Shown here: piece after piece, positions 37,935 to 41,179 of the stretch
How the letters are laid out: each line of letters begins with the position of its first letter
How positions within the stretch are numbered: position 1 is the stretch's first letter
Source: Pseudomonadales bacterium
GTDB lineage: Bacteria; Pseudomonadota; Gammaproteobacteria; Pseudomonadales; UBA7239
Direction: 5' to 3'
NCBI GenBank assembly: GCA_041395785.1
Contig: JAWKZZ010000008.1
Location: forward strand, 1,471 to 65,470
Length of the DNA stretch: 64,000 nt
Program-made: the position numbers and the translations under genes
Notes under the pieces: model-generated
Seen by the model: only the letters and a program-made list of their open reading frames with translations
The model's database searches: none
Told to the model about the DNA's origin: nothing

Positions 37935-37969
37935 AAATAAAAAAGCCGGAACGATTACTCGCTCCGGCT
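37935..37969 (-). terminator. rho-independent terminator (strong on minus strand)
   Basis: Stem 37944-37950 / 37963-37969 (agccgga / tccggct) with a 12-nt loop. The minus strand continues TTTTTATTT (37943-37935). The plus strand continues only tgtgtt. Confidence 0.75.
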
Positions 37970-38138
37970 TTGTGTTCAGACTTTCATCTGCCCTTCCCGT
38001 TACCGATCCTTGGCAGTGTCTCTGTACTATTGTTGTGCTGTTATTATTGTTATTCAGCTTTTCTTCTTGTTATCGGCATAAGGCATTCGTTGTTTTTGTT
38101 ACCACTGCCGCTTCTTATTGTGATTTGTTGTTGTTGTA
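37935..38138 (-). ncRNA. candidate sigma-54-dependent, (ARN)n/AANAANAA-rich sRNA (CrcZ-like Hfq/Crc sponge architecture)
   Basis: It lies between a near-consensus -24/-12 promoter and a terminator. It holds 4-5 A-rich clusters (ACAACAACAACAAAUCACAAUAAGAAG, AACAAAAACAACGAA, AUAACAAGAAGAAAAG, AAUAACAAUAAUAACAGCACAACAAUAG). A long-range stem pairs GGCAGUG (38109-38103) with CACUGCC (38018-38012). There is no SD-preceded ORF over 10 codons. Confidence 0.6.
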
Positions 38139-38149
38139 CTTTTACTATC

Positions 38150-38164
38150 GCAAGCCGCGTGCCA
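38150..38164 (-). promoter_or_regulatory. sigma-54 (-24/-12) promoter
   Basis: The minus strand reads TTGGCACGCGGCTTGCG, which is TGGCAC-N5-TTGC with exact GG/GC spacing. Predicted TSS ~38138. Confidence 0.7.
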
Positions 38165-38225
38165 ACTTTTTATTCGCTTAAAAATCAAACAATTACTCAT
38201 TTAGCCTTCACCTAAATTGCCTATA

Positions 38226-38244
38226 GGTAACAAAAATTGTTACC
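38226..38244. promoter_or_regulatory. palindromic upstream activating sequence (candidate enhancer-binding-protein site)
   Basis: GGTAACAAAAATTGTTACC is a perfect 8-bp-arm inverted repeat (GTAACA-N5-TGTTAC) 63-81 nt upstream of the -24 element. Further GTTAC pentamers lie at 38251-38255 and 38261-38265. Confidence 0.5.
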
Positions 38245-38297
38245 GCGCGCGTTACGCTGCGTTACCGTTCGACTCATATCGCCACCAAAGCAATGGC

Positions 38298-38312
38298 TGG
38301 TATGCACATTGC
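38298..38312 (+). promoter_or_regulatory. weaker sigma-54-like element facing rppH-ptsP
   Basis: TGGTATGCACATTGC has GG and GC at consensus spacing (TGGYAY-N5-TTGC). It lies about 60 nt upstream of the rppH GTG, mirror-symmetric to the minus-strand promoter around the palindrome. Confidence 0.3.
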
Positions 38313-38373
38313 CGCACAAGTTTCTTTGTCTCGCTAACAATCTGTGGAACAATGCAGCAAATCGGAGGTATTT

Positions 38374-38877
38374 GTGGTAGACGCAGAAGGTTTTCGTCCC
38401 AATGTCGGCATCATGCTGGCCAACGCGCACGGAGAGTTGCTGTGGGCTCGCCGTGTCGGCGGTATGGATGCATGGCAATTTCCGCAGGGCGGCATCCAAG
38501 CACAAGAAGACCCAGAAGCCGCGCTGTTTCGCGAGCTGCGCGAAGAAGTAGGGCTAATACCGAACGATGTGCGCATCATGGGCTGCACGCGCGGTTGGTT
38601 GCGCTATCGCCTGCCACCTCGCCTTATCCGTCGCCATCAAAATCCACTCTGCATCGGCCAAAAACAGAAGTGGTTTTTTCTACAAATGCTCGGCGATGAA
38701 GCCAGCATCCATTTTGATAATAGCGATGAACCTCCCGAGTTTGACCACTGGCGCTGGGTCAGCTATTGGCATCCGCTGACACAAGTGGTGTCGTTCAAAC
38801 GCGAGGTCTACCGCAGCGCCCTCAAGGAACTGGCACCGTATCACTTGGCGTTGTCCAACCGTCTATCCCATGCCTAA
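38374..38877 (+). CDS. rppH: RNA pyrophosphohydrolase
   Basis: [15 protein letters not shown].. Nudix box [26 protein letters not shown] 38374 is preceded by GGAGG (38364-38368). The track start at 38344 is less likely. Confidence 0.9.
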
Positions 38878-38889
38878 GGATAGATGCCG

Positions 38890-41179
38890 ATGCTCAATGC
38901 ACTGAGAAAACTGGTACAGGAAGTCAACGCAGCCACCCACTTGGAGGAGGCCTTGTCATTGATTGTGCGTCGCGTGCGCACCGAGATGGCAACACAGGTC
39001 TGCTCCATTTATCTGCTCGACACCGACAGCCAGCGCTACATCCTGATGGCTACCGAAGGTTTGAATCAGGATGCCAGGGCAAAGTCAGTTTGGCAGTTGG
39101 CGAAGGTTTGGTTGGCTTGGCGGCTAAACGCGAAGAGCCGATCAACTTGGATGATGCTGAATCACATCCACAATACCGCTATTTTCCAGAAACGGGCGAA
39201 GAGCGCTTCGCTCCTTTCTCGGCACGCCGATCATCCACCACGGCAAAGTGACCGGCGTATTGGTCGTACAGCAAATCGAAGAACGACACTTTGACGAATC
39301 GGAGGAATCTTTCCTCGTCACACTCTCGGCGCAGTTGGCGGCCATCATCGCGCACGCTGAGGCGACGCGCTCGCTCGACCCACCCAGCCGCCTGCACGGC
39401 TATAAATCCCCAGAAGCCAATTTCAAAGGGATATCCGCCGTACAAGGCGTGGCACTGGGTGAGGTGGTGGTGGTCTATCCGCCCGCCGACCTCAATGGTA
39501 TCCCCATCGAGAAAACGGACGACATTGATGCTGAACTGATACTGCTCAATGCCGCACTGCAACGCGTGCGCCAGGATATGCAGCAATTGTCGAGCAGCTG
39601 CAAAACCGCTTGCGCGAGGAAGAGCGCGCTGTTTGCCGTCTATCTCGGCATGCTGACTGACAGTGCCTTAGGCGGCGAAATCAGTGCACTTATTCGCACT
39701 GACGCCCTACAAGCACGATCTGCACTGGCCAGCGTCATCCGTGAACACATACGCACTTTTGAAGACATGGAAGACGCTTACTTACGCGAACGCGCCACCG
39801 ATGTGCGCGACCTAGGTTTGCGCGTGTTGGCAGCCATGAACCTACAAAACCAGGACAACAAACGCACCGTATATCCGGCAAGAACCATTTTAGTAGCCGA
39901 AGAACTCAGCGCCTCCATGCTCGGTGAAGTGCCCGAAGGGCAGCTTGTCGGCTTGATCTCAGTGCGCGGCTCCAGCGCCTCACACGCTGCTATCCTCGCG
40001 CGCGCCATGGGCATCCCCACCGTGGTCGGTGTCACCAATCTGCCTTTCCAGCAACTGAATGGCCGCCACATTGTGCTCGACGGCTATCGTGGCAAGGTGT
40101 ACACCAACCCCTCCAAATTATTGCGCCGTCACTTTGAAAGTATTTGGCGCGAAGAACAGCAACTCTCACGCGACTACCACGCGCTGACACCACTGCCTTG
40201 CGAAACCAAAGATGGACAACGACTTCCTCTGTGGGCCAACACCGGCATGATGACCGATGTGGTGCGCTCACTGGACCGCGGCGCAGAAGGCGTCGGTCTC
40301 TACCGCACCGAAGTCGCTTTTTTGTTGCGCGACCGCTTCCCCAGTGAAGAAGAACAGCGCAGCTTGTATCGCGAACAGTTAAGCGCCTTTGCCCCCAACC
40401 CCGTCACCATGCGCACACTGGACATCGGCGGCGACAAATCCCTACCCTACTTTCCCATCCGCGAAGACAACCCGTTTCTCGGCTGGCGCGGGATTCGCGT
40501 ATCACTCGATCACCCTGAGATTTTCTTGGTGCAAGTGCGCGCGATGTTGAAAGCCAGTGAAGGCGTCAACAATCTGCGCATCATGTTGCCAATGATCACC
40601 AGCACCGCAGAATTGGATCAAGCTTTGCAATTAATTTATCGCGCGCGGCAAGAACTGCTGGAAGAAGGGCACGACATTCATCTGCCGCAAATCGGCGCGA
40701 TGATCGAAGTACCGGCTGCACTTTACCAAGTGCGCGAATTGGCACGCCGCACAGATTTCCTCTCAGTAGGCACTAACGATTTAACGCAATATTTGCTAGC
40801 GGTTGATCGCAATAACGCGCGCGTAGCAGGTCTTTACAGCCATTTGCACCCCGCCGTTTTGCAGGCGCTAGCTCATATTGCCAACGACGCGCACGCCGAA
40901 GGAAAAACGGTCAGCGTCTGCGGTGAAATGGCGGGCGATCCCTGCGCCGCCGTGTTGTTGATGGCGATGGGTTACGATGCGCTGTCCATGAATGCCAACA
41001 ATTTGCCGAAAATAAAATCTGTCATTCGCAATTTGCACCTGACAGATGCAAAAAAATTATTGTCAGAAGTATTGGCGATGAACGATGTGCGCTCCATCAG
41101 CAAACACGCCAACAGCACACTAGCGCGCTGGGGGGTTAGCAAACGCCTCTTGCACGCCGAGACAGAAGAAGACGCCTAA
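38890..41179 (+). CDS. ptsP: phosphoenolpyruvate-protein phosphotransferase PtsP (EI-Ntr), two single-nt frameshifts in the GAF domain as written
   Basis: The GAF N-terminus MLNALRKLVQEVN..YLLDTDSQRYILMATEGLNQDA switches frame at ~39075-39079 to GKVSLAVGEGLVGLAAKREEPINLDDAESHPQYRYFPETGEERFA. It switches again at ~39209-39216 to LGTPIIHHGKVTGVLVVQQ... The EI domain is then intact (GSSASHAAILARAMGIPTVVG, FLSVGTNDLTQY) through 41179. Each switch is a -1 shift. Confidence 0.9.

What the first reader, a model, noticed from the sequence alone, without database searches (positions are those of the whole stretch)
38150..38312. A divergent pair of -24/-12 elements symmetric about a GTAACA-N5-TGTTAC palindrome, suggesting a shared enhancer for the sRNA and rppH-ptsP
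Seen: the strong minus-strand promoter lies at 38150-38164. A weaker plus-strand TGGTATGCACATTGC lies at 38298-38312 with correct GG/GC spacing, ~60 nt before the rppH GTG. The perfect palindrome GGTAACAAAAATTGTTACC (38226-38244) sits almost midway between them, followed by GTTAC at 38251 and 38261. GTTACC also recurs inside the sRNA region (~38000 and ~38098). Established: bacterial enhancer-binding proteins bind palindromic UAS sites 70-150 bp upstream of sigma-54 promoters. From memory, the CbrB sites described for Pseudomonas crcZ use TGTTAC/GTAACA half-sites with a longer spacer. PtsP is EI of the nitrogen PTS, which is functionally tied to the rpoN operon. Inference: one activator may co-regulate the sRNA and the rppH-ptsP operon. 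The plus-strand element could equally be a chance match.
Basis: partly seen in the sequence, partly recalled or inferred. Interest (0 to 1): 0.55.

Follow-up and report, generated by a model that had tools for sequence, protein, structure and literature searches.

The report
One-way enhancer of a CrcZ-like sRNA
The palindrome is one of two conserved activator-binding sites that drive only the leftward sigma-54 small-RNA gene. The supposed rightward sigma-54 promoter for rppH-ptsP is a chance match, and rppH has its own widely conserved ordinary promoter.

Summary

**Minus-strand promoter.** TGGCACGCGGCTTGC (38150-38164) is the only perfect sigma-54 match in 64 kb. All 10 relatives that carry the sRNA keep a perfect match to the same consensus.

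**Enhancer.** Upstream of the promoter, all 11 sequences (window included) share one layout:
- GTAAC(A/G)-N16-GGTAACA, 22 bp start to start;
- then 73-75 nt (86 in one) to the -24 element;
- an IHF consensus at a fixed offset in 7 of 11.

Its distal half (TGTTACC on the plus strand) is invariant. The other half is kept only in the closest relatives.

**Comparison with CbrB.** The half-sites, the 22-bp spacing and the likely IHF requirement match the R1-R2 part of the published Pseudomonas CbrB site. The F1 subsite is missing here.

**The sRNA.** The transcript (about 38138 to 37937) has six (ARN)n tracts, like the Hfq sponge CrcZ. It does not match Rfam's CrcZ model.

**Plus-strand element.** TGGTATGCACATTGC is a 2-mismatch match (119 in the window, 128 expected) and is absent from every relative. 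rppH carries a TGTGGAACAAT extended -10-like motif shared across many families.

Shared divergent control of rppH-ptsP is not supported.

The parts
38150..38164 (-). Sigma-54 -24/-12 promoter of the sRNA (TGGCACGCGGCTTGC). The predicted start is about 38138.
   Evidence: It is the only 0-mismatch match in 64 kb. A perfect match to TGGCAC-N5-TTGC is found at the same place in L001-L003, L098-L104, L106 and L107. The start site is inferred from the usual 11-12 nt after the -12 GC.
38183..38195 (+). IHF-consensus site AATCAAACAATTA (WATCAANNNNTTR), between the enhancer and the promoter.
   Evidence: A consensus match lies 18-19 nt from the -24 element in 7 of 11 sequences, and at 33 nt in one more. 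Binding was not tested.
38226..38244 (.). The invariant half is 38238-38244 (GGTAACA in the sRNA orientation, equivalent to CbrB subsite R2). The half at 38226-38232 is specific to the close lineage.
   Evidence: GGTAACA is invariant in 11 of 11 sequences and lies 73-75 nt from -24 (86 nt in L104). The other half is 6/6 in the window and L098, 5/6 in L001, L002 and L101, and absent in L003, L103, L104, L106 and L107.
38260..38266 (.). Enhancer site 1: CGTTACC on the plus strand, GGTAACg in the sRNA orientation (equivalent to CbrB subsite R1).
   Evidence: GTAAC sits exactly 22 bp upstream of site 2 in 11 of 11 sequences.
38251..38255 (.). Extra GTTAC between the two sites. It is not conserved and is probably incidental.
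   Evidence: The aligned position reads GTGAC in L001 and unrelated sequence in L002, L003 and others.
38298..38312 (+). Plus-strand sigma-54-like string TGGTATGCACATTGC, a chance match.
   Evidence: It has 2 mismatches: 119 such matches in the window against 128 expected. It is absent in all relatives.
38325..38353 (+). Probable sigma-70 promoter of rppH: a -35-like TTTGTC/TTGTCT (38325-38331), a 16-17 nt spacer, then an extended -10 TGg-AACAAT (38345-38353).
   Evidence: TG[GA]AACAAT lies 26-69 nt before the rppH start in 57 of 89 loci from many families, usually preceded by TTTGCC. The simple consensus scanner did not call it, because it scores 8 of 12. The assignment rests on conservation.
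38374..38877 (+). rppH (NUDIX RNA pyrophosphohydrolase), starting at a GTG.
   Evidence: Translation, Pfam NUDIX, homologues.
37937..38138 (-). A-rich sRNA of about 200 nt with six (ARN)n>=3 tracts and an intrinsic terminator (stem 37942-37971).
   Evidence: There are 10 AAnAAnAA motifs against 1.07 +/- 1.2 in shuffles, the densest stretch in the window. Terminator. Fold z-score -6.6, with the A-rich tracts unpaired. Homologues in 10 relatives. Among about 107 loci, only these sRNA loci score high.
38891..41179 (+). ptsP (EI-Ntr), split across three reading frames in this window.
   Evidence: tblastn with the intact L098 PtsP places residues 1-65, 64-110 and 99-763 in three different frames. 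Relatives have intact proteins of 759-764 aa.

Best explanation
The interval 38150-38266 is the one-directional control region of a sigma-54-dependent small RNA gene read leftwards.

**Proposed mechanism.**
1. An NtrC-family enhancer-binding protein with CbrB-like DNA specificity binds two GTAACA subsites. These lie 22 bp (two helical turns) apart, centred about -102 and -124 from the predicted start.
2. In this genome the proximal subsite has been extended into a perfect GTAACA-N5-TGTTAC dyad.
3. IHF, bound at about -51, bends the DNA so that the activator contacts sigma-54 RNA polymerase at the -24/-12 promoter.
4. The product is an RNA of about 200 nt that displays six (ARN)n tracts. It most likely titrates Hfq in the manner of CrcZ.

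**The other direction.** rppH-ptsP is transcribed rightwards from its own sigma-70 extended -10 promoter (38325-38353). The plus-strand -24/-12 look-alike at 38298-38312 is a chance match.

**Shown:** the motifs, their conservation, their fixed phasing and the RNA's composition.

**Inferred:** protein binding, the identity of the activator, the transcription start sites and Hfq sequestration.
For: **Sigma-54 promoter.** It is unique in the window at 0 mismatches, and every sRNA-bearing relative keeps a perfect consensus match.

**Enhancer architecture.**
- GTAAC(A/G)-N16-GGTAACA is present in 11 of 11 sequences, while the flanking columns are unconserved.
- The enhancer-to-promoter gap is 73-75 nt in 10 of 11 and 86 nt (about one more helical turn) in the eleventh.
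- The distance to the rppH -10 motif varies from 55 to 160 nt.
- An IHF consensus lies at a fixed offset.

**Published CbrB sites.** They use the same hexamers with R1-N15-19-R2 spacing, and activation depends on IHF (PMC8871633, PMC6296734).

**The sRNA.**
- It is enriched in AAnAAnAA motifs.
- CrcZ is described as a 407-nt RNA with six A-rich stretches bound by the Hfq distal face (PMC4063720).
- The sRNA stays next to rppH even where the other flank differs (L104, L106, L107).

**rppH promoter.** The motif occurs in 57 of 89 loci across families.

**Plus-strand element.** It is at chance level and not conserved.
Against: - No enhancer-binding-protein gene lies in the window or in any fetched locus, so the activator is unidentified.
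- The literature describes CbrAB as exclusive to Pseudomonadaceae.
- The F1 subsite of the CbrB consensus is missing in the window. In L002, L003, L103 and L106 a TGTTACC lies 24-30 nt upstream of R1, not 12-14 nt.
- Rfam's CrcZ model gives only weak local hits: 14.8 and 12.7 bits against a gathering score of 95.
- The sigma-70 assignment for rppH fails the simple consensus scanner.
- There are no expression data.
Confidence: 0.8

Rival explanations
1. The palindrome is a shared bidirectional enhancer: one activator drives both the sRNA promoter and a weak plus-strand sigma-54 promoter (38298-38312) for rppH-ptsP.
For: The plus-strand string has the correct GG-N10-GC spacing and lies 62 nt before the rppH GTG. 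Enhancers work in either orientation (established knowledge). The sRNA and rppH stay adjacent across rearrangements of the other flank.
Against: The element is a 2-mismatch match at chance frequency. It is absent in all 10 relatives, including the one with 96% RppH identity. Site 1 ends only 32 nt upstream of its -24, and no IHF site lies between them. The enhancer-to-rppH distance is not held constant. rppH has a conserved sigma-70-like motif that is shared by families without the sRNA.
Confidence: 0.04
2. The architecture is as in the best explanation, but the activator is another NtrC-family protein unrelated to carbon control. In this model the sRNA acts by base-pairing or some other mechanism, not as a CrcZ-like Hfq sponge.
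For: No CbrB gene could be linked to this clade. TGTTAC/GTAACA half-sites also occur in tandem dyads upstream of sigma-54 promoters on unrelated high-GC metagenome contigs (L082, L090, L091, L094, L095), so the half-site alone does not identify CbrB. The RNA fails the Rfam CrcZ model. Other sigma-54-dependent sRNAs with different functions exist, such as Qrr, GlmY and NrsZ (established knowledge).
Against: Three features coincide: the hexamer, the 22-bp spacing and the IHF site all match the CbrB layout. The extreme (ARN)n density is kept in all homologues while the rest of the RNA diverges. That pattern fits a protein sponge better than a seed-pairing sRNA.
Confidence: 0.12
3. The GTAACA repeats are operators for a conventional, non-sigma-54 regulator of the rppH-ptsP promoter, and their position near the sRNA promoter is incidental.
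For: The sites lie 55-160 nt upstream of the rppH -10 motif, a range that class I activators or repressors can use.
Against: Their distance is fixed relative to the sigma-54 promoter, not to rppH. L105 lacks the sRNA promoter, and no GTAAC pair was seen in the 320 nt upstream of its rppH, yet it keeps the rppH motif. The dozens of families with the rppH motif have no such repeats.
Confidence: 0.03

Closest known systems
CbrB-dependent crcZ/crcY promoters of Pseudomonas and Azotobacter (sigma-54 plus IHF; subsites TGTTAC-N12-14-GTAACA-N15-19-GTAACA)
   Same: The hexamers are identical (GTAACA/TGTTAC). The R1-N16-R2 spacing falls within the published N15-19. An IHF site lies between the enhancer and the -24/-12 promoter. 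The product is an A-rich, multi-(ARN)n sRNA.
   Different: - There is no F1 subsite at N12-14.
- The proximal site carries an inverted partner after N5, which makes a dyad; CbrB sites are described as non-palindromic.
- The gene is not downstream of cbrB but divergent from rppH.
- The host is an uncultured clade labelled Pseudomonadales/Cellvibrionales, outside Pseudomonadaceae.
- The RNA is about 110-230 nt, not 407 nt, and is not recognised by RF01675.
NtrC-type enhancers (tandem 17-bp dyads, hexamer-N5-hexamer, upstream of sigma-54 promoters such as glnAp2)
   Same: Site 2 in the window has hexamer-N5-hexamer geometry. There are two sites on the same face of the helix about 100-125 bp upstream. 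The comparison rests on established knowledge of NtrC sites.
   Different: The half-site sequence differs from NtrC's TGCACC. Only one half of each dyad is conserved across relatives.
Other sigma-54 / enhancer-binding-protein / IHF-controlled sRNA genes (glmY and glmZ with GlrR; qrr genes with LuxO)
   Same: An sRNA gene driven by a -24/-12 promoter, with upstream activator sites and, for glmY/glmZ, IHF sites (established knowledge).
   Different: The binding motifs differ (GlrR TGTC-N10-GACA; LuxO TTGCA-N3-TGCAA). Those sRNAs are not (ARN)n-rich. None of their Rfam models matches here.

Membership tests
Sigma-54 (-24/-12) promoter, minus strand 38150-38164 | TGGCAC-N5-TTGC with GG and GC 10 nt apart, conserved in relatives | tested here: met
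   0 mismatches and unique in the window. All 10 sRNA-bearing relatives keep a perfect consensus match.
Sigma-54 (-24/-12) promoter, plus strand 38298-38312 | A consensus match above chance that is conserved at the orthologous position | tested here: not met
   2 mismatches; 119 observed against 128 expected. Absent in all relatives.
CbrB-type enhancer | R1 and R2 GTAACA subsites separated by N15-19 (centres 20-25 bp apart) | tested here: met
   GTAAC(A/G)-N16-GTAACA in 11 of 11 sequences. Consensus taken from PMC8871633.
CbrB-type enhancer | F1 subsite TGTTAC 12-14 nt upstream of R1 | tested here: not met
   Nothing resembles it in the window, L098 or L001. L002, L003, L103 and L106 have TGTTACC 24-30 nt upstream instead.
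CbrB-type enhancer | An IHF site between the enhancer and the promoter | tested here: met
   WATCAANNNNTTR at 38183-38195, at the same offset in 7 of 11 sequences. This is a sequence match only.
CbrB-type enhancer | A CbrA/CbrB orthologue encoded in the genome (crcZ lies immediately downstream of cbrB in Pseudomonadaceae) | not testable with these tools
   No GAFTGA-type activator in the 64-kb window or in any fetched locus. The adjacency to cbrB is therefore not met. The rest of the genome is out of reach.
CrcZ RNA family (Rfam RF01675) | A score at or above the gathering threshold of the covariance model | tested here: not met
   Two local hits of 14.8 and 12.7 bits against a threshold of 95. 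Nothing at gathering.
CrcZ-like Hfq sponge (functional class) | Several unpaired (ARN)n>=3 / AAnAAnAA tracts in a sigma-54-driven, terminator-ended RNA | tested here: met
   Six tracts; 10 motifs against 1.07 +/- 1.2 in shuffles. The tracts are unpaired in the predicted fold and the pattern is conserved in homologues. Hfq binding itself cannot be tested here.
Sigma-70 extended -10 promoter (rppH) | TGn plus a -10 hexamer and a -35 hexamer at 16-18 nt, upstream of the gene | tested here: inconclusive
   TTGTCT-N16-(TGg)AACAAT is conserved in 57 of 89 loci. It scores 8 of 12 on the hexamers and was not called by the scanner. No start site is mapped.

The most novel reading that the evidence does not exclude
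An uncultured marine gammaproteobacterial clade outside Pseudomonadaceae carries an undescribed family of miniature (about 110-230 nt) CrcZ-like Hfq-sponge RNAs. They are driven by a CbrB-like enhancer and are always divergent from rppH-ptsP. That would mean the CbrB/CrcZ type of catabolite control is not exclusive to Pseudomonadaceae. The conserved linkage to the RNA pyrophosphohydrolase and EI-Ntr operon might reflect a functional tie, for example activator or IHF binding modulating the neighbouring sigma-70 promoter.
Probability: 0.4. Interest if true: 0.55.

Novelty: new variant of a known kind. Interest (0 to 1): 0.33.

Why it matters
The specific claim, a divergent sigma-54 pair sharing one enhancer and linking an sRNA to the nitrogen PTS, does not hold, so no new regulatory logic follows from it.

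What remains is useful on a smaller scale:
- It is a clean example of phylogenetic footprinting. Two GTAACA subsites lie 22 bp apart, with fixed phasing to a -24/-12 promoter and an IHF site between them.
- It points to a CbrB-like activator and a CrcZ-like RNA in a lineage where that system has been said not to exist.
- It gives a precise genome-wide search pattern (GTAACA-N16-GTAACA-N73-75-TGGCAC-N5-TTGC) for predicting this activator's regulon in these uncultured bacteria.

Tried and rejected
- **Rfam.** At gathering thresholds only a tRNA was found elsewhere. A permissive scan gave weak local CrcZ, SdsR and AgvB hits driven by A-rich runs and the terminator.
- **Sigma-70/terminator scanner.** It found the sRNA terminator but no sigma-70 site by its criteria.
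- **Activator gene.** A search for GAFTGA, ELFGH or Walker A motifs in all six frames of the window found none. A GAFTGA-type search of every fetched locus found none in frame.
- **Pfam.** Scans of 30 window ORFs show housekeeping genes only.
- **Metagenome pattern scan.** The scan for the full enhancer-promoter architecture gave 17 loci. Three are the same clade (L087, L093, L089). The rest are unrelated organisms with protein-coding targets, so it added no new sRNA homologues.
- **Species-representative genomes.** Of 80 loci, only the three closest (L001-L003) carry the sRNA promoter.
- **Palindrome on its own.** It was rejected as evidence, because 7-N5-7 palindromes occur at about chance frequency.
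- **GGTAAC inside the sRNA.** The copies at 37999-38004 and 38097-38103 were considered as downstream binding sites. They are conserved only in the closest relatives and one overlaps an A-rich tract, so they were treated as part of the RNA.
- **TGGAACAAT as another kind of element.** It was considered as a sigma-54 -24 element or a sigma-E -35 element. It was rejected because nothing is conserved downstream at the right spacing, and in this clade it lies only about 26-33 nt from the start codon.
- **Literature.** Searches found no report of CrcZ-like RNAs or CbrB outside Pseudomonadaceae.

Full report
**1. What is in the sequence**

- TGGCACGCGGCTTGC lies on the minus strand at 38150-38164.
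- TGGTATGCACATTGC lies on the plus strand at 38298-38312.
- The perfect 19-bp palindrome GGTAACAAAAATTGTTACC lies at 38226-38244.
- GTTAC lies at 38251-38255 and GTTACC at 38261-38266.
- Two further GTTACC copies lie inside the transcribed region (37999-38004 and 38097-38103).

rppH starts at the GTG at 38374 (Pfam NUDIX).

Left of the promoter, on the minus strand, lies an A-rich transcript of about 200 nt. It ends in a strong intrinsic terminator with its stem at 37942-37971.

The local gene order is recN, GDSL lipase, hslO, HAD hydrolase, a double-FHA protein, [sRNA], rppH, ptsP, radA.

**2. Chance levels**

- The minus-strand promoter is the only 0-mismatch match to TGGCAC-N5-TTGC in 64 kb.
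- The plus-strand string has two mismatches. Strings of that quality occur 119 times in the window against 128 +/- 12 in shuffles, roughly one per 540 bp counting both strands.
- A perfect 7-N5-7 palindrome is not rare either: 6 in the window against 3.4 +/- 1.9 expected.

Significance therefore has to come from position and conservation.

**3. Relatives**

- A genome scan with RppH gave 80 loci. Only the three closest (L001-L003; RppH 84-93% identical; labelled uncultured Pseudomonadales/Cellvibrionales) have a sigma-54 promoter divergent from rppH.
- A protein search and contig look-ups added distinct relatives down to 71% RppH identity.
- Ten of eleven distinct relatives keep a perfect TGGCAC-N5-TTGC on the strand opposite to rppH, followed by an A-rich, terminator-ended RNA.
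- This holds even where the other flank is different: MtmB and a pterin-binding protein in L104, prmC-thiF-cobT in L106 and L107. L105 has an RseA-like gene upstream and lacks the sRNA.
- The metagenome pattern scan returned only the same clade plus unrelated organisms.

**4. The enhancer**

Anchoring the 11 sequences (window plus 10 relatives) on the promoter shows one invariant layout: GTAAC(A/G)-N16-GGTAACA, 22 bp start to start. The flanking columns are unconserved.
- The gap from the proximal hexamer to the -24 element is 73-75 nt in ten sequences and 86 nt in L104, about one extra helical turn.
- The distance from the distal hexamer to the rppH promoter motif ranges from 55 to 160 nt. 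The sites are therefore phased to the sRNA promoter, not to rppH.
- A WATCAANNNNTTR match (38183-38195 in the window) lies 18-19 nt from the -24 element in 7 of 11 sequences.

- Its TGTTACC half (plus strand, 38238-38244) is invariant.
- The GGTAACA half (38226-38232) is perfect only in the window and L098.
- That half is one base off in L001, L002 and L101, and absent in the more distant relatives.
- The GTTACC at 38261 is the invariant distal site. The GTTAC at 38251 is not conserved.

**5. Comparison with CbrB**

The literature gives the CbrB site as TGTTAC-N12-14-GTAACA-N15-19-GTAACA (subsites F1, R1, R2). Centres are 20-25 bp apart, the sites are described as non-palindromic, and activation depends on IHF and sigma-54. 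The best-studied targets are the sRNA genes crcZ and crcY (PMC6296734, PMC8871633).
- The two invariant sites here match R1-N16-R2 in both sequence and spacing.
- F1 is missing in the window. A TGTTACC lies 24-30 nt upstream of R1 in L002, L003, L103 and L106.
- The same papers call CbrAB exclusive to Pseudomonadaceae.
- No activator gene lies in the window or in any fetched locus, so the activator is inferred, not identified.
- Caution is needed. Unrelated high-GC metagenome contigs carry tandem TGTTACC-N3-GGTAACA dyads upstream of sigma-54 promoters. The half-site alone does not prove CbrB.

**6. The RNA**

- The predicted transcript (38138 to 37937) is 43% A. It has six (ARN)n>=3 tracts and 10 overlapping AAnAAnAA motifs, against 1.07 +/- 1.2 in composition-matched shuffles.
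- It is the densest such region on either strand of the window.
- Among all of about 107 fetched loci, only the homologous sRNA loci score high.
- In the predicted fold (z = -6.6) the tracts are unpaired.
- Homologues vary from about 110 to 230 nt by gain and loss of AACAAUAACAA modules, often shown in hairpin loops. They share a GGGAAGGRCAG segment before the terminator.
- CrcZ is a 407-nt RNA with six A-rich stretches that titrate the distal face of Hfq (PMC4063720).
- Rfam's CrcZ model gives only 14.8 and 12.7 bits against a threshold of 95. The RNA works like CrcZ on paper but is not a detectable member of that family.
- No paper on CrcZ-like RNAs outside Pseudomonadaceae was found.

**7. 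rppH's own promoter**

- The plus-strand -24/-12 look-alike is not kept in any relative. L098 and L001 differ at the key bases, and L002 and L003 lack the segment.
- In contrast, TGTGGAACAAT (38343-38353) occurs 26-69 nt before the rppH start in 57 of 89 loci. These include Halieaceae, Spongiibacteraceae, Marinobacterium, Nitrincola and Pseudomonas, nearly all without the sRNA. It is usually preceded by TTTGCC at a distance suitable for a -35 element.
- It reads as an extended -10 sigma-70 promoter: TTGTCT-N16-TGg-AACAAT.
- The simple scanner did not call it because it matches 8 of 12 hexamer positions. The assignment rests on conservation, and no start site is mapped.

**8. Verdict**

- The region is a CbrB-like, IHF-assisted enhancer that serves only the leftward sigma-54 sRNA promoter.
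- The conserved unit is two direct GTAACA subsites. In this lineage the palindrome is an elaboration of the proximal one.
- Co-regulation of rppH-ptsP through a divergent sigma-54 promoter is not supported.
- The conserved adjacency of the sRNA to rppH is real but unexplained. It may simply be inherited synteny.
- ptsP in this window is broken into three frames, while relatives have intact genes. This is either sequencing error or decay.

Noticed in passing
window 38891-41179 (breaks near 39084 and 39200-39218): ptsP is split across three reading frames: residues 1-65, 64-110 and 99-763 of the L098 orthologue align in different frames. Relatives encode intact proteins of 759-764 aa. The cause is either indel errors in the assembly or a pseudogene.
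   Followed up: partly
window 38343-38353; L001-L107, 26-69 nt upstream of rppH: TGTGGAACAAT, usually preceded by TTTGCC about 16-17 nt upstream, is conserved before rppH in 57 of 89 loci spanning many gammaproteobacterial families. It is probably a deeply conserved extended -10 promoter of rppH-ptsP.
   Followed up: partly
L082, L090, L091, L094, L095 (metagenome contigs, high GC): Tandem dyads TGTTACC-N3-GGTAACA lie about 22 bp apart, about 75-90 nt upstream of TGGCAC-N5-TTGC, before protein-coding genes. The hexamers are the same as here but the dyad orientation is opposite. They presumably serve a different enhancer-binding protein in an unrelated lineage.
   Followed up: no
L083 and L097 (metagenome contigs, AT-rich): Two direct copies of TGGTAACAATCTTA(T/C)CA lie 22 bp apart. 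An ATCAA-rich stretch and TGGCACGGCTATTGC follow, ahead of a protein-coding gene with a strong ribosome-binding site. This is the same two-direct-repeat architecture in an apparently unrelated organism.
   Followed up: no
sRNA homologues: window 37975-38030 (minus strand); alignment A2 columns about 160-200: The segment CUGCC...GGGAAGG(A/G)CAG just before the terminator is conserved across most sRNA homologues, while the A-rich modules vary in number. It could be a second functional module, such as a protein-binding or processing site.
   Followed up: no
L002 at -63, and L024 and L027 at about -75 from rppH: One-mismatch sigma-54-like strings on the rppH strand (CGGCACCGGCTTTGC and TGGCAGGCTATTTGC) overlap the conserved TTTGC of the -35 region. 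They occur in only two lineages and do not align with the window's element, so they are probably by-products of the -35 motif.
   Followed up: partly
L104, L106, L107 compared with the window, L098-L103: The sRNA stays divergent from rppH although the gene on its other side changes: the FHA protein in most, MtmB and a pterin-binding protein in L104, cobT in L106 and L107. The sRNA, its enhancer and the rppH promoter region appear to be inherited as a unit.
   Followed up: partly
window 37970-38215 (plus strand): Mechanical ORFs of 69-81 aa lie antisense to the sRNA. They are T-rich, have TTG or GTG starts, and are almost certainly spurious.
   Followed up: no
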